Source of the DNA: a virus
Lineage: Duplodnaviria > Caudoviricetes
Reading direction: 5' to 3' (one strand)
IMG/VR virus record: IMGVR_UViG_3300042363_000465
Location: 1 to 36,868 of that record
Length of the DNA stretch: 36,868 nucleotides
Part shown: piece by piece, positions 3,383-32,757 of the stretch
Numbering within the stretch: position 1 is the first letter of the stretch
Layout: every line of letters begins with the position of its first letter
Program-made: the position numbers and the translations under genes
Notes under the pieces: generated by a model
Databases searched by the model: none
What the model saw: only the letters and a program-made list of their open reading frames with translations
What the model was told of the DNA's origin: nothing

Positions 3383-3984
3383 TACCACTTTCTTTAGTAA
3401 GCAAGTGGATGTTCTTTGTAAGAGAAAACCCACAGTATTTAAATAGATTCTCCGATTGTTTTTGGCCTAGTCAAATGATCAGTAAAGCTGCTGCTTTAAA
3501 ATTATTAGACTCTAAAATGCGTTGGACGGGTGAAGATCAACAGGTGTATGTGTTTGGTGGTTGGTATGGAATATTTGCTCAGATAATGCACGAAAGATAT
3601 CAAGGTATAAAAATATTTAATATAGATATAGATTCTTCGTGTGAGTTTGTATTTAATAGTATAAACACTAGTGATCAAATAGTACATATTACTTCAGATA
3701 TGGCAGAGTTTGAGTATACAACAATTCCTGACCTTGTTATTAATACAAGTACCGAACATGTTTCACAGAAAACATATGACACCTGGTGGAACAAGATTCC
3801 TAGCGGCACTATATATTTAATACAAGGCAATAACTTTTTTGAAAGTCATGAACACATTAGATGTTCCAATACAATAGAAGAATTTTTAAAAATGAATCAC
3901 TTAGATGATGCAGAAACAATTGAATGTGGTATGAGACCAGACGGATCTTCTTTTTATAGATTTATGTCGGTGGGAATAAAATGA
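3379..3984 (+). CDS. Class I SAM-dependent methyltransferase-like protein
   Basis: VYVFGGWYG (motif I-like), NIDID acidic strand end, DM, DLVINTSTEH. Confidence 0.65.
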   Translation: MIPLSLVSKWMFFVRENPQYLNRFSDCFWPSQMISKAAALKLLDSKMRWTGEDQQVYVFGGWYGIFAQIMHERYQGIKIFNIDIDSSCEFVFNSINTSDQIVHITSDMAEFEYTTIPDLVINTSTEHVSQKTYDTWWNKIPSGTIYLIQGNNFFESHEHIRCSNTIEEFLKMNHLDDAETIECGMRPDGSSFYRFMSVGIK

Positions 3985-6852: not shown

Positions 6853-7892
6853 AAAAACACATAGTTTTAACACTTCAAAATCCTTTAAATGAATCTGATT
6901 TGTTAGATATAAAGTTTAATGTTACTGATACTGACATTGGTGATGATTGGTTTCACTGTTGCTCAGAAGCATTAAAAAGCAATTCTCGTTTAGAAAAAAA
7001 CTTTTGTTGGTTAGGCTGGCCTGATCCTAATAGAACAGTATCTTACTTGTCAGAAAAATTGAATGTTTGTGTAGACAGCATTAATGAATTTGCTGATAGT
7101 AATATCAATCTTTGGAGTGGGTATCGAATTAATAAAAATTGGGATGATATTTCTACTGACGATGCTTTGAATCAACTACATCATCACTTTGAAATTTTGA
7201 TGGGACAAGTTTGGGACGTTGCTATCTATATGAAAACTGCAAACGACAAAACATCATATTATATACGGCAATTAAATAATCTTGTGCATGAATTGGCCTC
7301 CAGAAAAACTGCCAATACAATGGGAGGAATGACTATTGCAAGTTATTTGAATCCAGTGCGTAGTTTGTTGATGGATAGTTATTATGATAGCTTTTCATTA
7401 CAAAGAAATTTCGGTGATGTATTTTTACATTATGCACAAACGGGTAAAACTCCAATAGAAGCGTTTGAAGATGATGATGACTATGTATTCAATAACAACA
7501 TCAATGCTCTGAGGTATATGTCAGGTGAGTTTAATATCTGGTGGAGCGGTTCTACAAGTGATGCACAAATAGTGGAAAAAAAGAATGCTCTTCGAAAATG
7601 GTTACACGAAAGAAATGTTATCATGCAGGAGGAAGGTGATTTTTGTTATTATGTTGATTCAGAGGGAAATAAACAGGGTGTTGGTTGGTTAGTTGTTGCT
7701 GAATTGGAAAATCAATTCAAAACCAATCAAGATTTGTCAAAAGAAATCGCTAAAAGATTAAATATATATAAGGTAGAATGTTTTTTGAATAATGAGAGTA
7801 TCTCCTCTAAAACTTGGGATTACAAGTGGACAGATTCTAATTATGAAGAAAATGAAATTGAATTTCTTAGTCCACTATTTCCGAGAGTATAA
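6849..7892 (+). CDS. Hypothetical protein with His/Glu motifs embedded in the radical SAM cluster
   Basis: 347-aa ORF coupled at both ends; LNQLHHHFE...LNNLVHE...HYAQTGKT; no recognised family. Confidence 0.8.
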   Translation: MKKHIVLTLQNPLNESDLLDIKFNVTDTDIGDDWFHCCSEALKSNSRLEKNFCWLGWPDPNRTVSYLSEKLNVCVDSINEFADSNINLWSGYRINKNWDDISTDDALNQLHHHFEILMGQVWDVAIYMKTANDKTSYYIRQLNNLVHELASRKTANTMGGMTIASYLNPVRSLLMDSYYDSFSLQRNFGDVFLHYAQTGKTPIEAFEDDDDYVFNNNINALRYMSGEFNIWWSGSTSDAQIVEKKNALRKWLHERNVIMQEEGDFCYYVDSEGNKQGVGWLVVAELENQFKTNQDLSKEIAKRLNIYKVECFLNNESISSKTWDYKWTDSNYEENEIEFLSPLFPRV

Positions 7893-9289
7893 TGAGTACA
7901 CACACGTATGATGTAATCAATCTTAAAAATATTGCAGATGAACTTAATACCGTTGGTAAAGGTTTTTGCCTTGCTAAATGGTATCATGTTAGTATGCATC
8001 TACATACGGGTCAGAATCATAGTTGTTACCACCCTGCACCTCACAAAATACCTTTGGATTTAGCACAAAAAGATCCAAACGTTCTTCACAATAGTCCGTT
8101 CAAAAAACAAGTGCGTAAAGAGATGCTTGAAGGTAAGCGCCCTGACGAATGTAGTTACTGTTGGAATGTTGAAGACTTAGGTGACGATCAAATATCAGAT
8201 AGAATGTTGAGATCATCCGAACCTTGGGCAACTCCTTTGCTACAGGAAACAAAAGATATCGACTGGAACGCAGATGTATATCCTCGTTACTTAGAATTGA
8301 ACTTTAGCAATCGCTGTCAGTTAAAGTGTAGTTATTGTGCGCCGATGGCAAGTTCTAGTTGGTTACAAGAAACTAAAAAATGGGGTAACTGGCCATTAGA
8401 AAATAGAATCAATGTTAGACAGTATGACAATGATTCATTTGAGAATGAGGGTTCGATATATGGAGAAGAAGATACCAACCCATATATTAAAATATTTTGG
8501 GAGTGGTTTCCTGATGCGTACCCACACTTACACACTCTACGATTTACTGGCGGTGAACCTCTACTAAGTCCTAATGTATTTAAAGTGTTAGATTATGTAG
8601 CAGAACACCCTAAACCAGATTTAGAGTTTGCTGTTAATAGCAACATGATGATTCCTGAAAGAAATATTATTCGATTCATACAAACAGCAAATGATCTTAC
8701 TCGGAATAAAAAGATTCGGGGGTATTCTTTATTTACTAGTATAGATACTTGGGGTAAACAAGCGGAATGGATTCGCAATGGATTAAATATAGAAACATAT
8801 GAAAGCAATCTTCATTATTATATGGAGAATGCTGAATCCAAATACTTTAGCTTTATGGTGACTTTTTGTTTACTTGCTATTCCAAACTTTACTGAGTTTT
8901 TAGACAAAGTGTTAGAATTTAGAAGAAAGTATAATGTTGATAATAGTTATCAGCGAATAAATTTTGATACACCGTATACTGTAGAGCCTCCTCATCTCAC
9001 TGCTCTAATTGCTGATGATTGGATGGTAGAACGTTTAGAATATACTTGTGAATATCTAAAAGAAAGAGTAGATGATAATGATATAAACATGTTCTCAACT
9101 GTAGAGTATATGAAACTAAGACGGGTTCTTGATTGGGTGAAACAGAACAGATATGAAGGTGAAGAACTTGCAATGAATAGGAGAGATTTCGCGGCGTTTG
9201 TTGATGAACATGACAGAAGAAGAGGTGCTGATTTTCACGCTGCCTTTCCCGAACTTAAACCATTTTATGAAATGTGTAAAGACTCGTAA
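7892..9289 (+). CDS. Radical SAM enzyme 3 (same subfamily as 1 and 2)
   Basis: CQLKCSYC, TGGEP, CLAKW...SCYHP...ECSYCW, DRRRG.DF...FPE. Confidence 0.92.
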   Translation: MSTHTYDVINLKNIADELNTVGKGFCLAKWYHVSMHLHTGQNHSCYHPAPHKIPLDLAQKDPNVLHNSPFKKQVRKEMLEGKRPDECSYCWNVEDLGDDQISDRMLRSSEPWATPLLQETKDIDWNADVYPRYLELNFSNRCQLKCSYCAPMASSSWLQETKKWGNWPLENRINVRQYDNDSFENEGSIYGEEDTNPYIKIFWEWFPDAYPHLHTLRFTGGEPLLSPNVFKVLDYVAEHPKPDLEFAVNSNMMIPERNIIRFIQTANDLTRNKKIRGYSLFTSIDTWGKQAEWIRNGLNIETYESNLHYYMENAESKYFSFMVTFCLLAIPNFTEFLDKVLEFRRKYNVDNSYQRINFDTPYTVEPPHLTALIADDWMVERLEYTCEYLKERVDDNDINMFSTVEYMKLRRVLDWVKQNRYEGEELAMNRRDFAAFVDEHDRRRGADFHAAFPELKPFYEMCKDS

Positions 9290-10593
9290 TGAAAGATAAT
9301 AACAATTCAACTCTGTCTAAAAAATCAGATGAAATACAAAATTCTTTTTGTATATTACCCTTTGTACATACTTACCTTAACACTGAGGGGGATGTATTTC
9401 CTTGTTGTATATCTTGGGATGCTGAAAGAACCAATTTGATTGGGTATTTGAAAGATGCTCCACTAGAAGATCATTTTAATAGTGATTTTATGAAAACCTT
9501 GCGTCTTGATTTGTTGTCAGGAAAGAGAAGGGATGATGTGTGTACTAGGTGTTATACATCAGAAGATAACGGGTTTCCCGGCGGCCGCCATGGTAATAAC
9601 GGCGATCTAGAACACATGATTGATTCTGCGATAGAGGCAACAAAATCTGATGGATATCTGGAACCGATAATAAAAAGTTGGGACATACGGTATAGTAATT
9701 TGTGTAATTTGAAATGTCGGTCATGTGGAAGTGTTTACAGCACTACATGGTCAAAAGAAGATTCTGAATTCGTGCCCAGTAAAAAATACAATGAGATTAA
9801 AGCATTTCCTGAAGGCACCGATCCCTTAGAACATCAATACGATAATGTAGAAAAAATATATTTTGCAGGCGGCGAACCTTTGATTATGCCTGAACATTAC
9901 GCTACTCTTACTAAAATTATAGAAAAAGGTAGAGCAGAAAAAGTGCGTCTTGTATATAATACAAATATGACTAAACTGAATTACAATAAACATTATTTGC
10001 CGGATTATTGGAAACAATTTAAAAAAGTTACCTTGGGGTTAAGTATTGATTCTTTCGGTGACCGAGCAAATTACATAAGACATGGATCCGTTAAGTGGAA
10101 TAAGATAGAAAATAACATCAGAGAAATAAAAACATATTGTGAACAAAAAGGATCGAATATAGATTTTTTCTTTTCTCCTACTATTAGTTTATTGAATGTC
10201 TTTACTATAACAGACCATCATAAATATCTTTATGAAACTGGTCTTATGACACATATAGATTGTTTGTTGTTCAATATTCTATATTATCCACAAGATTTAT
10301 CTATATTGATTTTACCAGAAATACTTAAAAAAGAAATTCAGAAAAAAATACTAAATCATATTGAATGGATTCAGTCTAACGGAGGCGGTGAAAGATCAAT
10401 TAAACAATTTGAAAGTCTATCATCATATTTAAATGATCCGATAGAAAATAAAAATTATCATATTAGCACTTTTATTTCTAGGACAAACGAATTGGACCAT
10501 AGACGCAATGAATCTTTTTCAGCTACGTTTCCAGAGTATAAACCCTGGTGGGAAGAAATTAATAAAAACCATATAGTGTTGAAAAATCTATGA
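9289..10593 (+). CDS. Radical SAM enzyme 4 with N-terminal twitch/SPASM domain
   Basis: CILPF...VFPCC...CTRC, CNLKCRSC, AGGEP. Confidence 0.92.
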   Translation: MKDNNNSTLSKKSDEIQNSFCILPFVHTYLNTEGDVFPCCISWDAERTNLIGYLKDAPLEDHFNSDFMKTLRLDLLSGKRRDDVCTRCYTSEDNGFPGGRHGNNGDLEHMIDSAIEATKSDGYLEPIIKSWDIRYSNLCNLKCRSCGSVYSTTWSKEDSEFVPSKKYNEIKAFPEGTDPLEHQYDNVEKIYFAGGEPLIMPEHYATLTKIIEKGRAEKVRLVYNTNMTKLNYNKHYLPDYWKQFKKVTLGLSIDSFGDRANYIRHGSVKWNKIENNIREIKTYCEQKGSNIDFFFSPTISLLNVFTITDHHKYLYETGLMTHIDCLLFNILYYPQDLSILILPEILKKEIQKKILNHIEWIQSNGGGERSIKQFESLSSYLNDPIENKNYHISTFISRTNELDHRRNESFSATFPEYKPWWEEINKNHIVLKNL

Positions 10594-11891
10594 GTGAAAA
10601 AATAAAAATTTCAGATACCATGTGTTCTTTTCCATGGACACATTTACATGCTTGGCCAGAAGGTCGAGCTATGTTATGTTGTGTAGCCCATGGCGGAGAC
10701 AAGCGAGGCGAGGTTGGAGATTTTTCAACTCACAACTTTCAAGAAATTATGAATAGCGATAAGATGAAACAAGTCAGGCGCGATCTCATGAGTGGAATAA
10801 AAATTCCAGAATGTGAGGCTTGTTGGAAAGATGAAGAATTGGGAAAACACAGTTTTCGCAGAAGTAAGAACAACTATTCAATTGGTTCAGAGCAATATGT
10901 AGAAATTGAAAATCTTCTGAAAAAAACACACCCTGATGGCACATTAGAAGATCCTAAAATGCTTTACATGGATTTTCGTTTTAGTAACTTATGTAATCTA
11001 GGTTGTCAGACATGTGGAAGTCCTTTAAGCAGTACGATTGCAAATAATAGAGAAAATAATGACAGTGAAGAAAATTTTCTAAAAAATAAAAATGTATTAT
11101 CAGAAAGAGGCACAGTAACATCATTTGTATATGCTCGTCCAGACTTTATGGAAGTAGATGTATATCCATATTTAAATGATTGTCGTGAATTTTATTTTGC
11201 AGGCGGCGAACCTTTAATGCACCAAGAACATTTAGATATTTTAAAATATCTAGATGCAAATAAATTATACGACAAACATATTATTTATAGTACCAATATG
11301 ACGCTGACTAAATGGAAAGGAACTGACTTTTTAGAACTTTGGAAAAACTTCAATAAAATTCTTTTCTGGTGCAGCATTGATGGCTATGGAGATCAATTAG
11401 AATTTATAAGGGAATTTTCTAACCACTCAAATATTTTCAAAAATCTAGATAAATTATTAAAATTAAAAGAGAGTAACCCAAAATCATTTAATGTAAATAT
11501 ATGTTACACTCACAGTCTATATAATGCATATTATACTAAAGAATTTTTTCAATTTCTGTTTGATAATGGCTTTCTAGATAGACTAGGTGATATAGAGTTA
11601 AATGTTGCATATGACGATGAAAACTCCCCCGCATGTCTGCCGTTATTTGCAATAGAAGAATTAAGAAAAAAAAGAGCAGAAGATAGACAGTCAGATGTAA
11701 TGCAATATGCTTTCACAAAATTTGATAGGTTAGAACATTATTTTGATGCGATTGATATATCTTTAGACGCTAAAATACCCAGTAGTGTATTTGATAAGTT
11801 AGTACAAACTAAATTGAAACCTAAAATGGAAAAAATTGAGAAGGCGTTGCCATGGTTGGCTAGTGTAATTAAACGGAATCGGATAATATGA
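10590..11891 (+). CDS. Radical SAM enzyme 5 with N-terminal twitch/SPASM domain
   Basis: CSFPW...LCC...ECEACW, CNLGCQTC, AGGEP. Confidence 0.92.
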   Translation: MSEKIKISDTMCSFPWTHLHAWPEGRAMLCCVAHGGDKRGEVGDFSTHNFQEIMNSDKMKQVRRDLMSGIKIPECEACWKDEELGKHSFRRSKNNYSIGSEQYVEIENLLKKTHPDGTLEDPKMLYMDFRFSNLCNLGCQTCGSPLSSTIANNRENNDSEENFLKNKNVLSERGTVTSFVYARPDFMEVDVYPYLNDCREFYFAGGEPLMHQEHLDILKYLDANKLYDKHIIYSTNMTLTKWKGTDFLELWKNFNKILFWCSIDGYGDQLEFIREFSNHSNIFKNLDKLLKLKESNPKSFNVNICYTHSLYNAYYTKEFFQFLFDNGFLDRLGDIELNVAYDDENSPACLPLFAIEELRKKRAEDRQSDVMQYAFTKFDRLEHYFDAIDISLDAKIPSSVFDKLVQTKLKPKMEKIEKALPWLASVIKRNRII

Positions 11892-13093
11892 CTCACTGTA
11901 TAAATGTTTATAAAGGATTAAGATACACGAATAGCGGAGAGGTTATGTTTTGCTGTAAAAGTGAAAACTGGCTTGACGATAAAGATGGTATTCCTGTTAA
12001 CATAGCGACTCATACATTTGATAAAGCAATAAATGGAAAAATTGCCACTGAGATCCGAAACGATTTAGAAAATGGCATTCGTCATAAAAACTGTAAGAAA
12101 TGTTGGGAAGAAGAAGACGCTGGAATAAAAAGTAAAAGAATTTTAGATAATAATAGAGCAGAGGAATATTGGGGAAAAGAGTACCTACACGACAAAACCG
12201 CTAGTGCAGAAATTGTAGAATTAAATCTGGGAACTATCTGTAATTTAAAATGCAGAATTTGTGGTCCTTGGTCAAGTAGCAAGTGGGTAAAAGAACATTA
12301 TGAGATAAACAATAAAAAAGAACTCTTCTCTCAATATATGGAACAGGTTAAAAAATGGCAGGGTAATTGGGAAGATGACAGTCCATCTTGGATTCATATA
12401 GAGAATAGTTTACAACATTTAAAACAAATAGATTTTTATGGTGGAGAGCCTTTCTTAGTAGAAAAAAATTGGAGCATTTTACAAAAGAGCGTAGATGCTG
12501 GATATTCTAAAAATCAAATTTTACATTTTAATACCAACGGCACACAATACAATGAAAATCATATTGATATTTTAAAAAAATTCAAATCTGTATTGATAAG
12601 TCTGTCTATTGATGATTTATATGAGAGATTTGAATATCAAAGACACCCTGCAAAGTGGAATGAGGTATATGAAAACATTATTAAATTTACTGAGTTGGCA
12701 AAAAATACAGATAGTATTGATGTTGCAGTATGTATTACTGTAAATACGTTAAATGTTTTACATGTTCCGGAAATTGTAAAATTTTATGATGAGATGCAAC
12801 TACCGTATTATATTAATCTTTTGCATGGACCGCCCTACTATAATGTTAGAAATATTAAACAGTCAATCAAAGAAAAAATAACAGATAAATACAAATGTGA
12901 TACCAATAATTTGTCTGAGTATTCTAAGAATAGCTTAAAAACTGTTTTGAGCTACATGAATAATTATATAAGTTCTGATGGACCTTGGACTGAATTTATT
13001 AAGTTTACAAAAGCAAAAGATGAATATAGAAAAGAATGCTTTAAAGAAACATTTCCCGAACTATTTTCCATTATAGAGAAAAGTAATAAATGA
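11888..13093 (+). CDS. Radical SAM enzyme 6 with N-terminal twitch/SPASM domain
   Basis: HCI...FCC...NCKKCW, CNLKCRIC, YGGEP. Confidence 0.92.
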   Translation: MTHCINVYKGLRYTNSGEVMFCCKSENWLDDKDGIPVNIATHTFDKAINGKIATEIRNDLENGIRHKNCKKCWEEEDAGIKSKRILDNNRAEEYWGKEYLHDKTASAEIVELNLGTICNLKCRICGPWSSSKWVKEHYEINNKKELFSQYMEQVKKWQGNWEDDSPSWIHIENSLQHLKQIDFYGGEPFLVEKNWSILQKSVDAGYSKNQILHFNTNGTQYNENHIDILKKFKSVLISLSIDDLYERFEYQRHPAKWNEVYENIIKFTELAKNTDSIDVAVCITVNTLNVLHVPEIVKFYDEMQLPYYINLLHGPPYYNVRNIKQSIKEKITDKYKCDTNNLSEYSKNSLKTVLSYMNNYISSDGPWTEFIKFTKAKDEYRKECFKETFPELFSIIEKSNK

Positions 13094-13683
13094 AAATAAG
13101 TCAGCCGTTTGATGATATGCCGCTGTGGCAATTTGAAAATATTGATATTCCTGAGCTAAATTATTCAAAGTATCGTTATATATCGGGGCAAAACATGGAT
13201 TTCTTAACATCCGATCCGATTTACTCTAAGAGAAAAAGAATTGAATTTACTGAGTTAAATCAATGTGAAGATTTCAAGCAAATAAAAATACAAGTAATAG
13301 ATTTAATAGAAAAAATAAAAAAAACGAACACTTTGCGCCTTGACATTCTTTATCCCATGGACGCTTGGGATATGTATGAGTATCCAATTGATATTCTTAT
13401 TGATAACTCATCGTTTGATATGGGCAATCATATTGATAACAGAAACGTCAAATGCAATTTATTTTTAAATTTACAACATAATATGTCATCTACTGAATTT
13501 TCTATTGTAAATCAACATACTCCTTTTAACACCACAGAATTTAAACCGTCAATCAGAGAATGGAAAGGACCAACAGAAAAGGGAACTGGTTATTTCTGGT
13601 TTAACTGTCCAGAACTCTGGCATAGAATTCACGTAACTGATGTTGAACGAAAAATTGCAATGATGGGAGTAACCATTAAATGA
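13090..13683 (+). CDS. 2OG-Fe(II) oxygenase-like protein
   Basis: GNHID (HxD), distal LWH, and a downstream Arg (ERK), matching the double-stranded beta-helix dioxygenase layout. Confidence 0.65.
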   Translation: MKISQPFDDMPLWQFENIDIPELNYSKYRYISGQNMDFLTSDPIYSKRKRIEFTELNQCEDFKQIKIQVIDLIEKIKKTNTLRLDILYPMDAWDMYEYPIDILIDNSSFDMGNHIDNRNVKCNLFLNLQHNMSSTEFSIVNQHTPFNTTEFKPSIREWKGPTEKGTGYFWFNCPELWHRIHVTDVERKIAMMGVTIK

Positions 13684-14339
13684 ATATTGTTGTTATAGGA
13701 CCAGGCACAAATCCTCTTAGATTTGGAACATACTTTGTCAATCAGGCAGAGACAAGAGGACATACAGTCACTAAGTTTTCATATAGATTAGCGAATGATT
13801 CCGCTGAAACAATTGCTGAAAAATTTGGTGAGACTATATCTCATCTAGACAAAATAGATTTACTTTTATACAACTGCATGGGAGGAGGTTACCCAGGACA
13901 ACCAAAAGATTTTCAGTCCAGTCATGAAGTAAATTTTGCTCAATGGCAAGATAGTATTTTAATCAATGCTGCTATGCCACATATGTTTTCTATTAAATGT
14001 CTAGAGAAGATGGATGAATCTTCTTCTATAGTCTTTATGACTTCTTCTGCATCATATCTTATCAATAGAAATAATTATTTACAAATGGCAGGATATTTTG
14101 GTACTAAAGGTGTAATGAATAATTTGGCTAGAGCATTAGCCGAATACAATGACAAAAAGGCCACTGTTTCCCTTATAGCACCTCACATACCATATGATGC
14201 GCCCGATACTGCTATAGTTATTATGGATTCATTGACTAATAGAATATTAAATTTGACAAAAGAAGATAATGGAAAAATTCTACAATGTTATCCACCGAAT
14301 GGAAATATTTGGTATCATGAAGGTGGAAAGCAGGTATAA
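13680..14339 (+). CDS. Short-chain dehydrogenase/reductase (SDR)
   Basis: N-terminal VVIGPG, IDLLLYN, FMTSS, catalytic YFGTK (YxxxK). Confidence 0.8.
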   Translation: MNIVVIGPGTNPLRFGTYFVNQAETRGHTVTKFSYRLANDSAETIAEKFGETISHLDKIDLLLYNCMGGGYPGQPKDFQSSHEVNFAQWQDSILINAAMPHMFSIKCLEKMDESSSIVFMTSSASYLINRNNYLQMAGYFGTKGVMNNLARALAEYNDKKATVSLIAPHIPYDAPDTAIVIMDSLTNRILNLTKEDNGKILQCYPPNGNIWYHEGGKQV

Positions 14340-14344
14340 TACTT

Positions 14345-15559
14345 ATGAAAGATACCGTTTGCACTGCACCTTGGAATTCTGTTTATATAGACGGATCTAT
14401 CAAACTATGTTGTACTTCTCCTGGACCAATGCTAACGGACTCCGGTGATGAATCCTCATTGGATAATCTCAATACAATTCTTTCGGGTAAAACTTGGACA
14501 ACGATACGTCAGTCAATGCTAGATGGAAAAAAAATCCCTAAATGTAATCGTTGCTGGAATATGGAACCTAACAGTTTTCGGGCTAGTAATAATAATCAAT
14601 TTTCTGATACATTTAAAAAAATTATAGAAAATAACAGCTCAGATGTTATGGCACTAGAAAGTATGACGATTGCTATAGGAAATCAGTGTAATCTAAATTG
14701 TAGAATGTGTTCTCCAGATGCAAGCAGTATGATAGAAAGAGAATGGAGCAGAAAAGATAAACATCCTTTAGGTAAAGGAGTTGGACTGAGAACAGACATG
14801 ATAGTTAGCGATGCTGGAACAAAAGAAATCTTTCTTAAAGATTCTAGATTCTTAGACTTCATAAGAAAAAATGGCGAACATTTAAAAGAAATTTACATGT
14901 TTGGTGGTGAACCGTTTATCATAATAGAAGAGCATTTAACATTTCTTCAAGCACTTATAGATGCAGGCAGTTCTAAAAATATAACTTTAAGATATTCTAC
15001 AAACGGAACCAATATAACTCTTAGAAGATTTACAGACATCTGGAGTCATTTTAAAGAAATAAAAATACATGTCAGTTGTGATGGAATGGAAGAAGTCTAT
15101 GATTATATAAGATGGCCTAGTAAGTGGAGTAAAATGAAGGAAAATCTTAACTACTTTGCTGAATTGAAACGAAGCGGTAACATTTTTACATCAGTTGCTT
15201 GCACGATGCAAAATTTAACATTACTACAAGCAGATAGATTTGAAAAATTTATAAAAGAAGAATATGATTTAGGCATAGTTTATATTCCGGTAGATAGTCC
15301 TACTGAATTTTCATTGAAGACAGTTCCTATTGAAGTATTACAAAAAGTTTATAATAATACTCCTACAGAAAGAATAAAAAATATCATACAATCACATATA
15401 GATAACTACAATGAAAGTGAAAGTATATCGTTGTACAACAATATGTTAAAGGTAGTAAAATGGCAAGATAATTATAGAAATCAACATCTACATGATTTCT
15501 TTCCTACTATAGATGAGTGGTTCAAAAACAATCCTGCTAGGGCGAACTATAATGATTAA
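14345..15559 (+). CDS. Radical SAM enzyme 7 with N-terminal twitch/SPASM domain
   Basis: CTAPW...LCC...KCNRCW, CNLNCRMC, FGGEP. Confidence 0.92.
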   Translation: MKDTVCTAPWNSVYIDGSIKLCCTSPGPMLTDSGDESSLDNLNTILSGKTWTTIRQSMLDGKKIPKCNRCWNMEPNSFRASNNNQFSDTFKKIIENNSSDVMALESMTIAIGNQCNLNCRMCSPDASSMIEREWSRKDKHPLGKGVGLRTDMIVSDAGTKEIFLKDSRFLDFIRKNGEHLKEIYMFGGEPFIIIEEHLTFLQALIDAGSSKNITLRYSTNGTNITLRRFTDIWSHFKEIKIHVSCDGMEEVYDYIRWPSKWSKMKENLNYFAELKRSGNIFTSVACTMQNLTLLQADRFEKFIKEEYDLGIVYIPVDSPTEFSLKTVPIEVLQKVYNNTPTERIKNIIQSHIDNYNESESISLYNNMLKVVKWQDNYRNQHLHDFFPTIDEWFKNNPARANYND

Positions 15560-15656
15560 AAAAATAAAAGACTGGTATAAAAACTGGAAACATAAACGCG
15601 CAATTAAAAAGAGATTAAAAGAATTACAAGAAAAAGATCCTTTTACATATGATTAG
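15552..15656 (+). CDS. 34-aa basic peptide coupled to the carbamoyltransferase
   Basis: MIKKIKDWYKNWKHKRAIKKRLKELQEKDPFTYD fills the gap exactly and overlaps both neighbours by 8 nt. Confidence 0.75.
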   Translation: MIKKIKDWYKNWKHKRAIKKRLKELQEKDPFTYD

Positions 15657-17076
15657 TTGGGGTGTGAGTGCAGGATTCCATGACGCAGCGTTGACAATAG
15701 TGCAAGATGGCGTTATTGTCTTTGCTTCACACTCCGAACGATACAGTAGAATAAAAAATGACAAAAATTTAAATTGGGGATTACTACGAGCTGCACTAGA
15801 GTTTGGTAAACCTGATATTATTTTTTGGTATGAGAATCCTCTACTGAAAGCCACCCGTAGAATTTGGGCAGGACAAAAAAACTGGTATAAAAATCCTAGA
15901 TCATATTTTACAGATGTCGGTTACAATCCTGAATGCCCAATAGAATGGGGAAATCATCACAAGAGTCATTTTGCAGCAGGCTACTACACAAGTCCATTCG
16001 TAAGCTCTGCTACACTTGTTATAGATGCAATTGGTGAATGGACTACAAGTTCAATTTGGAAAAATGATAAAAAAGTTTGGTCGTCACATTATCCAAAATC
16101 TTTAGGACTTTTTTACACTGCCTTTACTGATAGGCTAGGATTGAAACCAAACGAAGATGAATACATTCTTATGGGTATGTCTGCGTATGGTAATCCCGAT
16201 AGATTCTTTGCTGAAATTAGTAAACTTACTCATACAGTAAAAAACATGCACAAAGGCGTTAGAAATTGGCGTCCCGAACTTACATCACAGCAAGACTTGT
16301 TTGATATTGCAGCAGCAGTACAAAAAGTATTTGAGTCTTACTTACATGGATTGTTAAATAAAACAAAAGAGCTAACAGGTGAAAAGAATTTAGTATATAT
16401 GGGAGGTTGTGCTTTAAACTGTCTTGCAAATAGACTTATACCAGAATATTTTAAAAGTCATTGGATTATGCCCAATCCAGGTGATGCAGGTTCTTCACTA
16501 GGTGCAATACTTGCACATACTAAAGAAAAAGTTAATTTTTGTACTCCATATTTAGGACATCAGATAAAAGGCGAGTATCCAGTTGACAAAGCACTACAAG
16601 AACTGTTACACTGTGGTATAGTAGGAATTGCAAATGGTAAAGCCGAGTTTGGTCCTAGAGCGTTAGGTAATCGTAGTTTGTTAGCAGATCCACGCGGAAA
16701 AGAAATGCAAGACAAAGTTAATGCGATTAAACAACGGCAAGAATTTAGACCTTTTGCTCCTGTGATTAGAAAAGAAGATGCAAAAGATTATTTTGATGTA
16801 GACGAAACTTTTAATTCGCCTTATATGCAACAAGTAGTGAAATGTAAGTACCCTGACAAATATCCAGCTATTGTTCACAAAGACGGGACAAGTAGGATAC
16901 AAACTGTTACATATAATCAAAATAAGGGACTATATTTGCTACTTACCGCTTGGTATGAAGAAACAGGTTGTCCTATGTTACTCAATACTAGTTTAAACAT
17001 AAAAGGACAACCTATTGTAAATACTGTTACAGATGGACAAATTTTTTCTAAACATTATAAAGTGAAAGTTATGTAA
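15649..17076 (+). CDS. O-carbamoyltransferase, NodU/CmcH/TobZ family
   Basis: GFHDAA, HHKSH, VIDAIGE, GGCALN, PGDAGSS, EFGPRALGNRS, RPFAP, LLNTSLN. Confidence 0.95.
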   Translation: MISWGVSAGFHDAALTIVQDGVIVFASHSERYSRIKNDKNLNWGLLRAALEFGKPDIIFWYENPLLKATRRIWAGQKNWYKNPRSYFTDVGYNPECPIEWGNHHKSHFAAGYYTSPFVSSATLVIDAIGEWTTSSIWKNDKKVWSSHYPKSLGLFYTAFTDRLGLKPNEDEYILMGMSAYGNPDRFFAEISKLTHTVKNMHKGVRNWRPELTSQQDLFDIAAAVQKVFESYLHGLLNKTKELTGEKNLVYMGGCALNCLANRLIPEYFKSHWIMPNPGDAGSSLGAILAHTKEKVNFCTPYLGHQIKGEYPVDKALQELLHCGIVGIANGKAEFGPRALGNRSLLADPRGKEMQDKVNAIKQRQEFRPFAPVIRKEDAKDYFDVDETFNSPYMQQVVKCKYPDKYPAIVHKDGTSRIQTVTYNQNKGLYLLLTAWYEETGCPMLLNTSLNIKGQPIVNTVTDGQIFSKHYKVKVM

Positions 17077-19175: not shown

Positions 19176-19901
19176 ATTAATACACTTTGGACATTTGGAG
19201 ATAGTTTTGTAGACGGGCTTCTAAAAGAAAGTCCCGCAGATCCTTCTTCAGGAAATTCTAAAGAAGAACGGTTAGACATATGTTTCGGGAATCAAATTTT
19301 TAAGAGAAGCAAATTATTTACAAAATTTTATAATATGGGAGTATCTGGTTCAGGTAATGAACAAATTGCGTATCAAGTTACTAAACTATTAGATAGTTTT
19401 GATAAAGATGATTTTGTTCTCATAGTATTCTCTAACATGCTAAGAGCGTGTAATTACAATTTTTTTACAGATGAATATGTAAGAGCAAGTGAAAACGAAC
19501 ATCAATATGCTAAAAGAAGTCCAGTATGGCAGACTGATATGATGTTGTTATATTTGCACTCACAACTAAAGTATAGAAATATATCTCATGTGTTTATGAA
19601 TTCATTTGAGCCTATTAACATGTACTCAAAATTTTCATATGAACAATTAAAATCTATAAATTATTATGAACCAGAGTATTTAGATAATACTTTATTCAAT
19701 ATTTTACTTGGTAAATTTTTACAGAAAAAAAATGATAAACTAGAATATCTAGAAATTGATCCTAGAAAAACTAGAATTTTTACAAAATTTAAAGGCTATG
19801 AAAACAATAAATATATTTCACCGTGTTTTCACCCTTCACCAGAAGGGCATGTACTTATCGCCGATACTTTAATTCCTATTATTACTGAATATAGGAAGTA
19901 G
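19176..19901 (+). CDS. SGNH/GDSL-like hydrolase or acyltransferase with a probable ATT start
   Basis: The frame is open 53 codons upstream of the track's 19335 start and contains LWTFGDSF (block I). NMGVSGSGN (block II) and C-terminal FHPSPEGH follow. An AAGGA SD lies 7 nt before ATT at 19176. Confidence 0.75.
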   Translation: MNTLWTFGDSFVDGLLKESPADPSSGNSKEERLDICFGNQIFKRSKLFTKFYNMGVSGSGNEQIAYQVTKLLDSFDKDDFVLIVFSNMLRACNYNFFTDEYVRASENEHQYAKRSPVWQTDMMLLYLHSQLKYRNISHVFMNSFEPINMYSKFSYEQLKSINYYEPEYLDNTLFNILLGKFLQKKNDKLEYLEIDPRKTRIFTKFKGYENNKYISPCFHPSPEGHVLIADTLIPIITEYRK

Positions 19902-20514
19902 GAATAGTTTGTTTATGATTAGTATCAAATATATAATCAGGTTCTTTATGATGACTTCTACGGTTAACACCTTCTTGATTGTAACCAATACCCATCAACA
20001 ACAGAACTTCATTTTCGATACCAGCATCTTTACCTACTTCAAAACCATTGAAACACAAGCAGCAACCAGTTTGATAACCCATTAAAGAAGATACAATATT
20101 AACATATCCAGCAGCAATACCGACGGCCATATCCGTATCTCTTTGAGTGAAGTCAGCAGTATCACCATAAACAGGATGTCCTTTAATAGCCATACCATCT
20201 GGGTTTTTTTCAAATGCTAGTAATACATTTGCGAGAGTTTGCGAGTTTGTTTGTGAAGAAAGTTTACCTTCCTTGCTTATATACATTCCCTGACCTTTAG
20301 TTTTATTGTGCATCTTTTCAATTACATCTCGGTTAGTAATAACATGAACTTTATAAAATGCACGATTTTGTTTACTAGGACATTGAGTGGCTGCTTCAAC
20401 AATTGCTTCTAAATCTTCTTTAGGGATTGATTTAGAAAGGTCCCAGTTTCTTTGAGTATGCTGACTAGAAGCAATAGCTTTTTTTAAGTCTAAATGAGAC
20501 AATTTGGTATACAT
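19882..20514 (-). CDS. Nitroreductase-family flavoprotein
   Basis: QRNWDLSKSIPKEDLEAIVEAATQCPSKQN, D.AVGIAAG....SLMGYQTGCC, LLMGIGY; GGAG SD. Confidence 0.85.
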   Translation of the reverse strand: MYTKLSHLDLKKAIASSQHTQRNWDLSKSIPKEDLEAIVEAATQCPSKQNRAFYKVHVITNRDVIEKMHNKTKGQGMYISKEGKLSSQTNSQTLANVLLAFEKNPDGMAIKGHPVYGDTADFTQRDTDMAVGIAAGYVNIVSSLMGYQTGCCLCFNGFEVGKDAGIENEVLLLMGIGYNQEGVNRRSHHKEPDYIFDTNHKQTIPTSYIQ

Positions 20515-28678: not shown

Positions 28679-29554
28679 ATGGCAATAACTTTAAGAAACA
28701 CTAAAGGCATCCCGTTAACCACTGAGGAACTGGATCAAAACTTTAGTGAAATTAGTACAAAAATAGATTCCAGTTCTTTAGGATCTGGTGTGGCTACTTT
28801 TTTGGGTACACCTTCTAGTGCAAACTTATTAGCGGCAATAACTAATGAAACAGGAACTGGTGCGTTAGTGTTTGCAAACTCACCCACATTAGTAACACCA
28901 GCACTTGGTACTCCAACAAGCGGTACTTTGACAAACGTAACTGGTCTTCCAATAGCAACTGGTGTGTCTGGTCTTGGTACGGGTGTAGCAACCTTTCTTG
29001 CTACACCTTCTAGTGCAAACTTATTAGCGGCAGTAACTAATGAAACAGGAACTGGTGCGTTAGTGTTTGCAAACTCACCCACATTAGTAACACCAGCACT
29101 TGGTACTCCAGCGAGTGGTACTGTAACAAATTTAACTGGCACAGCATCTATTAATATTAACGGCACGGTGGGCGCTACAACAGCAACAACTGGAAATTTT
29201 ACTAATATTACTGGAAACAATTTAGTAAATACTGTTATCAGAGGCAAAGTTCAAGCACTCGGTAGTATTTCAGGTGCAGTTACTATAAATATGTCACTTG
29301 GTGATACAGTTACTGCGACAATTACGGGCAATACCACATTTTCAATAACTGGTCTTACTAGTGGTTCAACGAACACAGTTTATCTTATATTAACCAACAG
29401 TGGCGCTGGTACCATTACTTATCCAACAGGTACTACGTTTAATCGAGGAGTTGCTCCAATTACAAGTGCAACAGGCAAAACTTTAATTATTCTAGACACT
29501 GTAGATAATGGGACTACTTATATGGGTGTTCAATCTTGGCGTAGTTACGCATAA
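28679..29554 (+). CDS. Virion fibre/adaptor protein with internal duplication
   Basis: MAITLR..KG.PLT.EELDQNF attachment-type N-terminus, duplicated TPSSANLLAA.TNETGTGALVFANSPTLVTPALGTP, beta-rich C-terminal domain; late promoters upstream. Confidence 0.75.
   Translation: MAITLRNTKGIPLTTEELDQNFSEISTKIDSSSLGSGVATFLGTPSSANLLAAITNETGTGALVFANSPTLVTPALGTPTSGTLTNVTGLPIATGVSGLGTGVATFLATPSSANLLAAVTNETGTGALVFANSPTLVTPALGTPASGTVTNLTGTASININGTVGATTATTGNFTNITGNNLVNTVIRGKVQALGSISGAVTINMSLGDTVTATITGNTTFSITGLTSGSTNTVYLILTNSGAGTITYPTGTTFNRGVAPITSATGKTLIILDTVDNGTTYMGVQSWRSYA
28807..29110 (+). repeat. 109-bp direct repeat with one mismatch, period 195 bp
   Basis: 28807-28915 versus 29002-29110. Confidence 0.9.
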
Positions 29555-29563
29555 GGATTTGTT

Positions 29564-31063
29564 ATGAGCTGGACTAGAAAATTATTTACATCTGGTGGAA
29601 ATAATACCAGTGTAGAAACAAGTTTCCCAACTAATACCACTACAAGTTGGAATACAAATACTACTAGATTAACTAATATTCTAACTAGTAGAAGTACCAC
29701 TACTGTTTGGGAAATTCCAGGTAACACAACTACTACATTTTTAACTAGTAGAACAACATCTGGAAATACTAGTTTTTCAACTTTAACTACTTTTCCGACT
29801 TTAACTACTTTTTCAACAGATACATTGTATTCAACAAATACATTGTATTCAACTAATACACCTTTTCCAACAACTACTAACTGGAATACAAGCACTACTT
29901 TTTCAACAAATACTCCTGTTCCAACAACCACTAACTTTAACACACTATTAACTGCATATACAGTTCCTACTACTTATTCATTAGGAAATACTTCTAGAAA
30001 TACAACCACTACTTTTCAAACTTCTAGAATTACAAGCGGGTTTACTTTTATTAATACTTCTAGAAATACAACCACTACTTTTCAAACTTCTACAAATACA
30101 AGCAGAAGCACTACTACATCTTGGTCTAGTTCTTTTAATTTTAATACTACTACATGTTGGCAAACAAATGCGAACACTTGTAGAAGTACTGACATAGGTA
30201 TAACCACTTTTCAAACAAGTTTTAATACTAATTTTAATGATACTAATAATGGGTGTATTAATTATAATACATATGGGCAAGAAACATCCAGAGACTCACC
30301 TTCTCCTGGATGTACATTACAGTCATGCGACTTAATTAGTCAAACATATGATTCTTATATATCTCCCGAAGACGGAGAGACAGAACTTCAATATCTGGCA
30401 CAGGAATGCTATAGTTGTGCTGTTAACTGTAATGTTAATACTTCTTCAACTACTACAGCTCCAATTCCTGGTACGACTTGTTACGATACTTTTTTTAACA
30501 CTTGTCGGTCAACAAATACATCAGGAACAACAACTGCTAGTAGAAACACTACTACTAATTATACTACATTTTGGAACTCAAGCCGGCTTACCAATACAGA
30601 GTTTGGAACAAATACTACTTTTTTCTCAAATGCTACATTTTGGAATACAAGTAAGTCAACAACTACAAATTGGACTACAAATTCATCTGTTTCAACTAAT
30701 GTAGAAGAATATATAAATACTTCTAGAAGTACAAATTCATCTGTTTCAACGAACACTTCTGCGCTTACAAACACTTCTAGAAGCACGAATACGCCGTATT
30801 CGACAAATACACCGTATCCAACAAATACACCATATCCGACCAATACTAGTAGAAACACCAATACTACTAGTAACACTTTAACAACTGCGTCAGGTACTTT
30901 TACAACTGATTTTAATACAAATAGAACAACATCGACAACAAATACTTTTAGTCAAAATACGACTACTCAATTTACAACAGAAGCAACAACTTCTTGGCAA
31001 ACTCAATACTCATCGAATACAACAACTACTACCAGTAGAACCACCAGCTGGATAACTGAATAA
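29564..31063 (+). CDS. Thr/Asn/Ser-rich fibre protein with mirror-complementary arms and a central Cys-rich tip
   Basis: 499 aa; all 10 Cys lie in aa 198-314; AAGGA SD; followed by a chaperone-like gene. Confidence 0.8.
   Translation: MSWTRKLFTSGGNNTSVETSFPTNTTTSWNTNTTRLTNILTSRSTTTVWEIPGNTTTTFLTSRTTSGNTSFSTLTTFPTLTTFSTDTLYSTNTLYSTNTPFPTTTNWNTSTTFSTNTPVPTTTNFNTLLTAYTVPTTYSLGNTSRNTTTTFQTSRITSGFTFINTSRNTTTTFQTSTNTSRSTTTSWSSSFNFNTTTCWQTNANTCRSTDIGITTFQTSFNTNFNDTNNGCINYNTYGQETSRDSPSPGCTLQSCDLISQTYDSYISPEDGETELQYLAQECYSCAVNCNVNTSSTTTAPIPGTTCYDTFFNTCRSTNTSGTTTASRNTTTNYTTFWNSSRLTNTEFGTNTTFFSNATFWNTSKSTTTNWTTNSSVSTNVEEYINTSRSTNSSVSTNTSALTNTSRSTNTPYSTNTPYPTNTPYPTNTSRNTNTTSNTLTTASGTFTTDFNTNRTTSTTNTFSQNTTTQFTTEATTSWQTQYSSNTTTTTSRTTSWITE
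29987..30092 (+). repeat. 40-bp exact direct repeat in the fibre gene (period 66)
   Basis: aatacttctagaaatacaaccactacttttcaaacttcta at 29987 and 30053; a second 21-bp repeat at 30676 and 30730. Confidence 0.85.
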
Positions 31064-31075: not shown

Positions 31076-31579
31076 ATGTTATATGCTAGAATAAATGTAG
31101 AAACTAACGAGGTGTTAGAATATCCTATAAATGAGGTTAAATTGCGTGATCACTTGGTGAATACTTCTCTGCCAAGAGTTATCACAGATTTTTCTTTAGC
31201 GGGAACACAATATGTTTGTGTGCCACCTGTACCTTTTGATAGTATAACTTTAAGACCAACAGAAACCCATCAGTTAGAAACCACTTCAGCATATTATGAT
31301 GATGAAACTGATACATGGGTTAGAGTATATGAATTGGTTGAAGTTAGGCCTTCTAAAAGAGCTATTAGAACTGAATTTCGCTGGAAAGAACTTTCTAAAA
31401 GAAGAGCAGCAGCACTGTCAAAACTAGATGCTAAAATTATGCGTAACCTGAGTGAAACTAGACAGGGGTTAGCTACTACTGAAAATATTGAAGACTTAGA
31501 TGCCAAAGCACAAGAGTTGAGAGATATGACAAATTTAGATGCATGGGATATTGACGAAAGAACCTTTTTTGATGTATAA
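31076..31579 (+). CDS. Tail fibre assembly chaperone-like protein
   Basis: YARI...VLEYP...LR...NTSLP N-terminus; C-terminal W..L..RR...L...D...AQELRDMT...W resembling Tfa-type chaperones; directly after the fibre gene. Confidence 0.6.
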   Translation: MLYARINVETNEVLEYPINEVKLRDHLVNTSLPRVITDFSLAGTQYVCVPPVPFDSITLRPTETHQLETTSAYYDDETDTWVRVYELVEVRPSKRAIRTEFRWKELSKRRAAALSKLDAKIMRNLSETRQGLATTENIEDLDAKAQELRDMTNLDAWDIDERTFFDV

Positions 31580-31612: not shown

Positions 31613-32584
31613 ATGATGCAATCGTTAGAATTAGAACCAAAAAGTGAAGAAGATGTCAAGCCCCTTCTCATAGAAAATAAAATGTCTGACAGGTATAATG
31701 AGCGAAAAAAGATCGGTCCTTATGCCTCAAGATCAGAAAGAAATGCATGGGCAGTAGAAAATGAAGATTTGGTTCGTTCATTATCTCCTTGGCCCATTAC
31801 CTATGATGTGGGTGCAATTCAAGGCAATGATTTTAGCGAATTTACTTATACAGAATTTGCCGGCGGCGGCATATGGGTAAACACTCAATCTAGGGAAATA
31901 AACTGCCGTCTGATTGACTTTGCATCTAAAGTTGATTCTGGAAAAGAAGGTGAAGAATTATTTGAAAAATTTGTAGCTTCTTTTTCTGATAAGTATGTGA
32001 TGGAAGAACTTGATGAGAAATATAAAAACATTAAACATGTTGTATTTTTACCTGGACATAATCTTTTAGATTTAGTAGATACTGAAGCATTAACTAAACT
32101 ATTAAAAGAAGAAGATGATGTTCAAGTAAAACCTCATCCACTGACACATGGAGATGCTATTCGATTAGTATCAAGAAGATGTGGTTGGCAAAAGGTACTT
32201 CCTAAAAACATTTCAGGTGCTAAACTACTTGAACAATGTGAAACAGTTTACAGTACCACTGCATCTGAAATGATTATCACTGGTGCTGCGCTAGGAAAAA
32301 CTGTTTACGATCTTTCAGTATACAGTGCATCGGGTGCAGGAGTGTATCAACCCATTCATCGTGTCATTTCATATCTACAAAAAAGAGAAGGAAAGGAAGC
32401 TGCAAAAAAAGCAATTGCTAATATTATTGCTTGCCCTTGGTCAGGGGTAGTTTTCAAATTTCATGATAACTATGAAGAAAGAATAAAAATGTATTTTGAT
32501 AAAGCACTGGAACTAAGAGAATTGTATCGTCCACTGTCTTGTGGTCGTGGTGATTTAGATAAAAAGAAAGATGTTAAAAAATGA
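31613..32584 (+). CDS. KpsC/KpsS-like (capsule-synthesis family, GT-B) glycosyltransferase-like protein
   Basis: VVFLPG, VKPHP, LLEQCETVYSTTASEM...AALGKTV, matching the HP motif and following layout of CMP-sugar-using GT-B enzymes. Confidence 0.55.
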   Translation: MMQSLELEPKSEEDVKPLLIENKMSDRYNERKKIGPYASRSERNAWAVENEDLVRSLSPWPITYDVGAIQGNDFSEFTYTEFAGGGIWVNTQSREINCRLIDFASKVDSGKEGEELFEKFVASFSDKYVMEELDEKYKNIKHVVFLPGHNLLDLVDTEALTKLLKEEDDVQVKPHPLTHGDAIRLVSRRCGWQKVLPKNISGAKLLEQCETVYSTTASEMIITGAALGKTVYDLSVYSASGAGVYQPIHRVISYLQKREGKEAAKKAIANIIACPWSGVVFKFHDNYEERIKMYFDKALELRELYRPLSCGRGDLDKKKDVKK

Positions 32585-32757
32585 AACCTGAACATCGAAA
32601 AAGAGCAGAGATATGTAATTCTTGTGAACACTTAAATAAAACAATAAGTGTTTGCAAGAAATGTGGTTGCTTCATGCCCGCCAAAACCCGTTTAAACTGG
32701 GCATCATGTCCAGTTGGCAAATGGGATAAAATAATCATCAAAGAAATTAAAGAATAG
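32581..32757 (+). CDS. 58-aa Cys-rich metal-binding protein (DUF6171-like)
   Basis: R.EICNSCEH...CKKCGCFMPAKT.L..ASCPVGKW; ATGA overlap with the upstream gene. Confidence 0.8.
   Translation: MKPEHRKRAEICNSCEHLNKTISVCKKCGCFMPAKTRLNWASCPVGKWDKIIIKEIKE

What the first reader, a model, noticed from the sequence alone, without database searches (positions are those of the whole stretch)
29564..31063. Mirror-complementary fibre: a ~200-residue-per-arm beta-hairpin zipped by Arg-aromatic pairs with a Cys-rich tip
Seen in the sequence (numbered by hand): every basic residue in the two low-complexity arms faces F, W or Y at the mirrored position. Index sum 513: F21/R492, R35/W478, R43/F470, F59/R454, R63/F450, F83/R430, W107/R406, F125/R388, plus aromatic pairs Y89/Y424, Y95/Y418, F101/Y412. 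Sum 515: R145/W370, F151/K364, R155/W360. Sum 514: R167/F347, F173/R341, R181/Y333, W187/R327, W199/R315, R207/Y307. That is 17 of 17 arm Arg/Lys. C198/C314 and C206/C306 both sum to 512, and the remaining Cys can be nested (231/289, 250/285, 255/282). The 6-residue repeats in aa ~71-125 mirror those in aa ~388-430. Established: diagonal cation-pi pairs and cross-strand disulfides stabilise beta-hairpins, and the T4 gp37 needle also runs out and back. Inference: the chain folds back on itself into a ~65-70 nm antiparallel ribbon (possibly oligomeric) with an acidic Cys-rich receptor tip. This looks like an undescribed virion appendage with a base-pairing-like protein code that low-complexity masking would hide.
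Basis: partly seen in the sequence, partly recalled or inferred. Interest (0 to 1): 0.92.

Follow-up and report, generated by a model that had tools for sequence, protein, structure and literature searches.

The report
Self-zipping hairpin fibre of lake phage
A 499-residue threonine-rich protein in the tail-fibre genes of a freshwater T4-like phage has two arms that match when one is read backwards (arginine or lysine opposite an aromatic residue), and most relatives keep the two arms equal in length, so it likely folds back into a thin two-stranded ribbon about 65-70 nm long whose cysteine-rich tip would contact the host.

Summary
Confirmed. All 25 index pairs are in the sequence. A gapped mirror alignment pairs 17 of 17 arm Arg/Lys with F/W/Y: score 80, against at most 41 in 300 parity-preserving shuffles and 0 of 1000 block permutations. 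Of 71 relatives collected, 57 beat all their shuffles. Eighteen cysteine-free relatives (668-1442 aa) pair over 305-649 positions, 16 in one ungapped register. Arm lengths co-vary (r=0.986, n=32; 4 exceptions). Corrections: Arg/aromatic and Thr:Thr pairs share one face; Pro lies on the other (13 of 13), favouring a two-stranded ribbon over a T4-needle barrel. The tip is predicted as a small sheet (pLDDT 84-97) whose disulfides are probably not nested. The gene sits between a fibre-tip gene, a fibre-chaperone-like gene and a KpsS/KpsC-like glycosyltransferase gene; cultured Caulobacter podoviruses and KVP40 carry short versions. No significant family, PDB or fold hit; nothing found in ten paper searches. 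This scan noted the same design on five other genomes. Structure, oligomer, virion location and glycosylation are untested.

The parts
29564..31063 (+). Mirror-complementary Thr-rich protein, 499 aa
   Evidence: no Pfam or PHROG hit
29564..29617 (+). N-terminal cap, aa 1-18, unpaired, basic/aromatic; likely attachment segment (inferred)
   Evidence: conserved start in group A; type co-varies with the upstream gene
29618..30229 (+). Outgoing arm, aa 19-222 (aligned to aa 213)
   Evidence: the 19/(L-5) anchor recurs in 9 group A relatives
30230..30433 (+). Tip, aa 223-290: six Cys, 10 Asp/Glu vs 1 Arg; predicted strands 223-234, 240-243, 250-267, 273-290, turn around P268-G271
   Evidence: AlphaFold2 with 42-row alignment, pLDDT 84-97 here; charge; Cys arithmetic
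30434..31045 (+). Returning arm, aa 291-494
28679..29554 (+). Upstream tail-fibre protein, 291 aa, with conserved C-terminal domain; candidate carrier of the hairpin (untested)
   Evidence: phrog_7760 tail fiber, E 9.4e-08; same C-terminal domain upstream in relatives
31076..31579 (+). 167-aa tail-fibre assembly chaperone-like protein
   Evidence: no direct hit itself; 34% identical over 154 aa, E 2e-21, to L121:2729-3286, which hits PF16778 above cut-off and phrog_4912
31613..32584 (+). 323-aa KpsS/KpsC-like (GT-B type) glycosyltransferase-like protein with invariant K-x-H-P
   Evidence: ESM Atlas features 0.94, 184 shared, PF05159 LipB/KpsS cluster; profile vs PDB best hit KpsC 6mgb E 0.013; PF05159 in 3 of 30 and PF07922 in 1 of 30 members, all below cut-off; invariant K173, H175, P176
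32581..32757 (+). 58-aa Cys-rich protein (DUF6171-like) that follows the transferase-like gene here and in several relatives
   Evidence: PF19668 E 9.4e-06, just below cut-off

Best explanation
The protein's two arms match in mirror order, and it most likely folds back on itself into one long two-stranded antiparallel beta-ribbon, predicted to be 64-74 nm if extended, that likely hangs from the tip of the upstream tail fibre and would present a disulfide-locked, variable tip to the host. Register is set by side chains on one face: Thr opposite Thr as filler, and every 4-10 residues an Arg/Lys (or Gln) opposite Phe/Trp/Tyr (shown as a sequence pattern; cation-pi contact inferred). The other face carries Ser/Asn/Thr/Ala, all the prolines and the arm cysteines; prolines there imply free strand edges (inferred from sheet geometry), and this face is the likely site of sugars added by the neighbouring KpsS/KpsC-like enzyme (inferred, about 40%). 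Length is tuned by matched insertions in both arms (shown in 28 of 32 marked relatives and 18 of 18 group C). Shown: pattern, family, paired lengths, gene context. Predicted: tip fold. Inferred: ribbon, monomer or side-chain-packed bundle, attachment, receptor binding, glycosylation. My odds: mirror beta-pairing 0.9; ribbon rather than closed barrel given pairing 0.7; tail-fibre appendage 0.85.
For: 17 of 17 arm Arg/Lys face aromatics; score 80 vs max 41 of 300 shuffles; 0 of 1000 block permutations, controls z at most 2.9. Each N-arm scores best with its own C-arm in 10 of 10 group A and 8 of 8 group C proteins tested. Group C: 856 of 882 paired Arg/Lys face aromatics, 16 of 18 in one ungapped register, L085 77 of 77 over 649 pairs (summed); a matrix trained on groups A, B and D (learned without group C) recovers all 18 (43-97 vs shuffle max at most 23); with Arg/Lys and aromatics masked, the L047 register still puts 44 of 45 opposite aromatics. 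Arm lengths from Cys markers that do not use the mirror score: r=0.986, n=32, N-arm 168-318 aa, unrelated to tip length. Group C register centre offset 14-15 in 18 of 18, mostly on an acidic D-P-E-x-G-like turn. In the family alignment 130 of 158 Arg/Lys face aromatics at offset 0, against 1-33 of 122-163 at offsets of 1, 2, 4. Pro on face 1: 13 of 13 (window), 159 of 183 (group A). Cys count even in 45 of 47 proteins with two or more; arm Cys come as mirrored pairs. AlphaFold2 places low-confidence strands 56-76/437-457 and 81-87/426-432, both summing to 513. Context; Thr/Ser-rich ORF within 1.6 kb upstream of the transferase-like gene in 81 of 86 loci with enough flank (100 loci, redundant, 14 too short).
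Against: No structure: AlphaFold2 pLDDT is under 50 for 415 of 499 residues even with an alignment. A matrix learned without group A did not recover the window's register (16 vs shuffle mean 14), nor did the masked test (2 of 8). 14 of 71 relatives do not beat all shuffles: 9 of 22 group B and 5 of 8 others; Cr30 gp254, L036, L038, L040, L123 give z at most 2.0. Four of 32 have unequal arms: L010 (26 aa short of the otherwise identical L011), L033, P0021, and P0003 (C-terminally short); 13 of 45 A/B proteins lacked the markers and were left out. Relatives are not independent. Group C has almost no Pro (3 in the paired arms), so a closed barrel is not excluded there. Transferase assignment rests on sub-threshold hits.
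Confidence: 0.6

Rival explanations
1. Three hairpins intertwine into a closed six-stranded antiparallel barrel, like an extended T4 gp37 needle; the two registers (Arg/aromatic at S, Cys at S-2) are the two neighbours of each strand.
For: The constant two-residue offset between Cys and Arg/aromatic registers is what a sheared barrel would give (inference); face 1 is small polar residues that could fill a narrow core, above all in group C; gp37 precedent (PMC9659904 passage).
Against: Pro on 13 face-1 positions of the window's arms, in both strands of the 6-residue repeats, would break barrel hydrogen bonds (established geometry); no His at all, so no iron sites (PMC6957217 passage); no gp37 match by sequence or fold.
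Confidence: 0.2
2. The mirror pairing is real but between chains (arm-swapped dimers or polymers), or ribbons pack face to face through the Thr/Arg/aromatic face.
For: The code needs only antiparallel neighbours; earlier scan notes describe two-gene versions (not checked by me); one face carries all bulky pairs, as a packing face would.
Against: The first and fourth conserved tip Cys lie on the arm register within 0 to -4 in 27 of 32 relatives, and group C turns are short and central: both fit closure within one chain.
Confidence: 0.1
3. The ribbon is not a receptor-binding tail appendage but another virion or infected-cell filament (sensor, decoy, glycan scaffold).
For: Relatives carry different N-terminal modules, and in KVP40, L042 and L067 the gene does not follow a recognised fibre gene; group C lacks a Cys tip. 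No virion proteomics seen.
Against: Directly after the annotated tail fibre gene in Lullwater, Quill, ERS, BL198 and DCM; followed by a chaperone-like gene here; tip is the most variable part (49-149 aa between markers).
Confidence: 0.07
4. A disordered mucin-like or solenoid stalk; the mirror pattern is a by-product of short repeats.
For: Low complexity, many direct repeats with 18-nt period; low pLDDT; weak signal in part of group B.
Against: Block-permuted and parallel controls fail; own-arm preference 18 of 18; matched arm lengths; no DNA-level cause: two weak inverted repeats only, Thr:Thr pairs share a codon 20 of 52 times vs 21.2 expected.
Confidence: 0.03

Closest known systems
T4 gp37 long-tail-fibre needle (domains D10-D11)
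   Same: Chain runs out and back in antiparallel strands with the receptor-binding region at the far end (PMC9659904 passage; PMC6957217 passages).
   Different: gp37 is a six-stranded trimer with seven His-bound irons inside a 215-residue C-terminal region; this protein has no His, about 200 residues per arm (up to 649 pairs in relatives), a Thr/Arg/aromatic pairing code, Pro-rich arms, disulfide-type Cys, and is a separate gene.
S16/T-even gp38 adhesin
   Same: A separate protein placed at the tip of a trimeric fibre through an N-terminal module (PMC6851490 passages); the arrangement I infer here.
   Different: gp38 has a helical attachment domain, beta-helix and polyglycine sandwich; no sequence match here, and attachment of this protein is untested.
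Designed cation-pi and cross-strand beta-hairpin peptides (YKL, HPD series)
   Same: Cross-strand cation-pi pairs stabilise hairpins; the twist-favoured diagonal on non-hydrogen-bonded sites is 2-9 where direct pairs sum to 13, i.e. S-2 (PMC9268152 passages).
   Different: 12-residue synthetic peptides with one such pair, against 17 to 77 pairs over hundreds of residues in natural proteins.
CryoSeek glycofibril TLP-12
   Same: Freshwater, Ser/Thr-glycosylated beta-ribbon fibril (10.1101/2025.09.30.679562, first part and passages).
   Different: Parallel triple beta-helix of Gly-Ser dodecapeptide repeats, assigned to alveolates; no mirror symmetry.
KpsS/KpsC (PF05159) capsule glycosyltransferases, for the neighbour gene
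   Same: H-P motif region and downstream nucleotide-binding stretch align with KpsC; Atlas features.
   Different: All hits are below curated cut-offs; donor and acceptor unknown; phage-encoded beside a fibre gene.

Membership tests
T4 gp37 needle | His-x-His iron-binding motifs along the needle | tested here: not met
   No His in 499 residues
T4 gp37 needle | Out-and-back antiparallel chain path | tested here: met
   As a sequence pattern; not a structure
T4 gp37 needle | Homotrimeric six-stranded barrel | not tested
   No homo-oligomer job was run; Pro distribution argues against it
T4 gp37 needle | Sequence or fold similarity to gp37 D10/D11 | tested here: inconclusive
   No PDB sequence hit at E 0.01; no Foldseek hit at E 0.001, best VIA Z 4.8, on a mostly low-confidence model
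gp38-type adhesin | Gp38 N-terminal helical attachment domain and polyglycine sandwich | tested here: not met
   No Pfam/PHROG hit; Gly only 15 of 499; 18-residue cap only
gp38-type adhesin | One copy bound to the tip of a trimeric fibre | tested here: inconclusive
   Gene order fits; no usable prediction
Triple beta-helix / TLP-12-type fibre | Tandem same-direction repeats and a C-terminal intramolecular chaperone | tested here: not met
   Mirror score 80 vs parallel 30; no chaperone domain hit; protein ends five residues after the last pair
KpsS/KpsC-like glycosyltransferase (neighbour gene) | PF05159 match above the gathering score | tested here: inconclusive
   3 of 30 members hit below cut-off, window protein none; Atlas 0.94; KpsC E 0.013
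KpsS/KpsC-like glycosyltransferase (neighbour gene) | CMP-sugar transfer activity | not testable with these tools
   Needs an enzyme assay

The most novel reading that the evidence does not exclude
A widespread, undescribed class of phage appendage: a single chain that zips on itself like a nucleic-acid stem through a residue-pairing code (Arg/Lys/Gln opposite aromatic, Thr opposite Thr), forming a two-stranded beta-ribbon from about 17 to over 200 nm long whose length evolves by matched insertions, mounted through interchangeable N-terminal modules and sugar-coated on its free face by a dedicated phage KpsS/KpsC-like transferase.
Probability: 0.35. Interest if true: 0.95.

Novelty: categorically new. 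Interest (0 to 1): 0.85.

Why it matters
If the fold holds, it is a fibre architecture outside the known phage repertoire (triple beta-helices, beta-spirals, collagen, the gp37 needle), with strand register over hundreds of residues readable from sequence alone. That makes long-range beta-register specificity, a standing question in folding and design, directly testable by swap-and-rescue mutants. It also raises how matched indels arise in two places of one gene. The sequences are low-complexity and return little in standard searches (tblastn of a group C member found no phage record). Cultured Caulobacter podoviruses carry 215-217-aa versions on a laboratory host, so structure, virion location and the glycosylation idea can be tested now. 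It is new relative to the literature I could search, not to this scan, which noted the design on five other genomes.

Tried and rejected
Single-sequence AlphaFold2: pLDDT 30.7, uninformative. Profile search of 1.84 billion representatives with aa 190-323: 1 hit, an unrelated repeat protein. ESM Atlas with the fibre: best 0.84, unnamed viral clusters, leads only. Foldseek PDB and BFVD: no match at E 0.001; VIA second look: 0 of 797 at Z 5 or more; the wide VIA search could not be run, and the tip was not folded alone, so its fold is not shown to be new. Complex prediction of three fibre-tip domains with the two hairpin ends: no verdict (score 0.04), no evidence either way. Masked-residue and held-out learned matrices failed on the window itself. 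Reads laid on L011 did not show whether the 26-aa shortfall of L010 is real. No RNA holder listed. KVP40.0254 scan of viral contigs returned itself and four loci sharing only its N-terminal module. Tentaclins (PMC10743442 passages) and TLP-12 rejected as unrelated. DNA inverted repeat as the cause rejected. Asn-x-Ser/Thr counts (33 of 62 Asn) follow from composition and were not used. Paper searches with no description of this design: (61, 100, 101, 133 returned 0 papers; for the others I saw listings); subscription journals and supplements were not searched.

Full report
Setting. The window is a piece of a T4-like myovirus: head closure, DNA end protector, tail tube and baseplate hub genes on one side, baseplate tail-tube cap, wedge, tail protein and gp5-like hub on the other, gp32 and gp59 further left. 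All 24 listed runs holding the gene are lake-water metagenomes, one of them possibly the source. The best gp32 matches are Methylophilales phage Melnitz and cyanophages at 55-57%; the host is unknown. The 499-aa ORF at 29564-31063 has no Pfam or PHROG match.

Observation. All 25 quoted pairs are right. One index sum alone is not significant (1874 of 20000 shuffles), three adjacent sums are (107 of 20000). A gapped mirror alignment with a hand-set matrix gives 193 pairs in three registers, 17 of 17 Arg/Lys opposite F/W/Y, score 80 against mean 24 and maximum 41 in 300 parity-preserving shuffles. Block permutation of the C-arm, which keeps the repeats, never reaches it (0 of 1000), and 12 control proteins give z at most 2.9.

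Family. Searches with the protein and with its conserved neighbour at 31613-32584 gave 71 non-redundant Thr-rich proteins including the window's: group A (23), B (22), C (18, no Cys tip, 668-1442 aa) and 8 others. Above all their shuffles: 23 of 23 A, 13 of 22 B, 18 of 18 C, 3 of 8 others (10-40 shuffles each). In group C, 856 of 882 paired Arg/Lys face aromatics and 16 of 18 need no gap. A matrix learned without group C recovers all 18; the converse test, learned without group A, failed on the window. With Arg/Lys and aromatics masked, the register was recovered in some proteins (L047 44 of 45, L010 8 of 8, L012 8 of 10) and not in the window (2 of 8) or most others, where repeats let it slide. 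Each N-arm prefers its own C-arm in 10 of 10 and 8 of 8 proteins tested. Cultured phages have short versions: KVP40.0254 (9 of 9, 50 pairs, 6-residue loop), Lullwater gp41 (10 of 12; 0 of 200 shuffles), BL198, DCM and ERS (7-8 of 10; 0-1 of 200). Cr30 gp254 and four other short neighbours show no significant signal.

Paired indels. Using Cys motifs that do not depend on the mirror score, N-arm and C-arm lengths correlate at r=0.986 over 32 of 45 A/B proteins (13 lacked the markers); the difference is -9 to -17 in 28, with exceptions L010, L033, P0021 and the C-terminally short P0003. Close pairs show matched changes, for example window/L011 +87/+88, window/L105 +23/+23, L050/L048 +44/+44, L086/L088 +26/+26; unmatched are L010/L011 (0/+26) and L032/L033 (+10/0). 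These may be repeat collapse in assembly, as one contig that skips 66 nt at a 40-nt repeat suggests, or true intermediates; one search did not decide. In group C the register centre stays 14-15 residues from the chain midpoint in 18 of 18, mostly at an acidic turn. No DNA symmetry explains this, so selection on the protein is inferred. Relatedness inflates these counts.

Anatomy. Positions alternate between two faces. Face 0 holds Thr:Thr (42 of 85 pairs in the window, 46% in group C) and nearly all Arg/Lys-aromatic and Gln-aromatic pairs, spaced mostly 4 or 6 apart; face 1 holds Ser, Asn, Thr, Ala. Mutual information peaks sharply at offset 0 on face 0 (1.15 A, 1.33 C) and is flat on face 1. 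Pro sits on face 1 (13 of 13; 159 of 183 in group A). Since Pro lacks an NH (established), face 1 residues are likely non-hydrogen-bonded sites with free edges, which favours a two-stranded ribbon for this protein. Arm Cys lie on face 1 and sum to two less than the local Arg/aromatic register (512 vs 514), the offset given for the twist-favoured diagonal in model hairpins (PMC9268152, passages). So either the disulfides are diagonal, or the backbone register is the Cys one and the cation-pi pairs are diagonal, or the two registers are two neighbours in a barrel; sequence cannot choose. Length: 193-215 pairs give 64-74 nm extended, 52-58 nm if strongly coiled (rise values from my own knowledge).

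Tip. AlphaFold2 with a 42-row alignment is confident only for aa 223-290 (block pLDDT 84-97), with strands 223-234, 240-243, 250-267, 273-290; low-confidence outer strands fall on sum 513. C231+C282 equals the arm register, and its equivalents lie within 0 to -4 of it in 27 of 32 relatives; strands 250-267/273-290 bring C250 near C289 and C255 near C285. I infer a non-nested pattern, but I could not see model coordinates. Tips vary from 49 to 149 residues between markers, always with an even number of inner Cys (32 of 32), and this one is acidic (10 D/E, 1 R). Variable, disulfide-rich and distal is what a receptor-binding end looks like (inference).

Module. Upstream is a tail-fibre gene (phrog_7760) whose C-terminal domain recurs before A, B and Caulobacter-type hairpins, while group C follows a 73-aa gene and starts with a different N-terminal module. 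Downstream is a protein similar to PF16778-bearing fibre chaperones and a KpsS/KpsC-like protein. A Thr/Ser-rich ORF lies upstream of the latter in 81 of 86 redundant loci (the bait was the transferase-like gene). In five Caulobacter podoviruses the order is tail fibre, hairpin, transferase-like gene, holin. Glycosylation of the hairpin is my inference from this linkage and from Ser/Thr content, at about 40%.

Comparison. Closest is the T4 gp37 needle, a six-stranded antiparallel trimer with His-bound iron (PMC9659904 and PMC6957217, passages); this protein has no His and fails membership, though it works like it in running out and back. S16 gp38 gives the precedent for one adhesin on a trimeric tip (PMC6851490, passages); Pam3 gp25 for a co-encoded fibre chaperone (PMC9608196, abstract). 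TLP-12 is a parallel triple beta-helix. The Caulobacter phage paper passages I saw say nothing on these genes (PMC11053796). No PDB sequence or fold match. Ten full-text searches found no description (listed under Tried and rejected); supplements and subscription journals were not seen. Five earlier notes of this scan describe the same code on other genomes, two as two-chain versions; I formed my reading before seeing them, did not check them, and count them as no evidence.

Verdict. Best reading: a long two-stranded beta-ribbon adhesin on a tail-fibre tip (0.6), with a trimeric barrel the main rival (0.2). Interest 0.85.

Noticed in passing
window 3981-15559: Seven radical-SAM genes in one run (3981-5423, 5416-6852, 7892-9289, 9289-10593, 10590-11891, 11888-13093, 14345-15559); three have a SPASM hit N-terminal to the SAM domain (two above cut-off); with an SDR (13680-14339), a carbamoyltransferase (15649-17076) and a nitroreductase (19882-20514). 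A large modification cluster of unknown target.
   Followed up: no
L129:1201-1844 (Caulobacter phage Quill_5.2 gp41): The annotated frame ends in an out-of-frame tail while another frame carries the returning arm to the expected end: frameshift or sequencing error.
   Followed up: partly
L043-L088, upstream of group C hairpins: A conserved 73-74-aa gene precedes group C hairpins, a short coiled-coil-like gene and two enzyme-like genes follow; attachment module and upstream partner change together across groups.
   Followed up: partly
window 32581-32757: 58-aa protein with three Cys-x-x-Cys-like motifs (DUF6171-like) follows the transferase-like gene here and in L010, L021, L028, L032, L121.
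   Followed up: partly
L123:4067-5990 (Caulobacter sp. UC70_42 chromosome): A prophage-like copy of the fibre tip, Thr-rich protein and transferase-like gene, with an insertion sequence interrupting the upstream fibre; the only hit in the genome collection. Mirror signal weak (z 1.1-2.1).
   Followed up: partly
L121:1813-2778: A 321-aa relative with almost no Arg in its arms but His-containing Thr motifs still scores above shuffles (z 5.4): possibly a His variant of the pairing code.
   Followed up: no
window 30404-30515 and 30651-30832: Lake-water runs hold divergent alleles around the tip and in the returning arm, some joining L010/L011-type sequence to the window type: signs of recombining length variants in one population.
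   Followed up: partly
L006:6055-6648 (KVP40.0254): Its N-terminal module also occurs inside unrelated fibre proteins (L125-L127); the gene lies far from KVP40's annotated tail genes in the stretch shown.
   Followed up: partly
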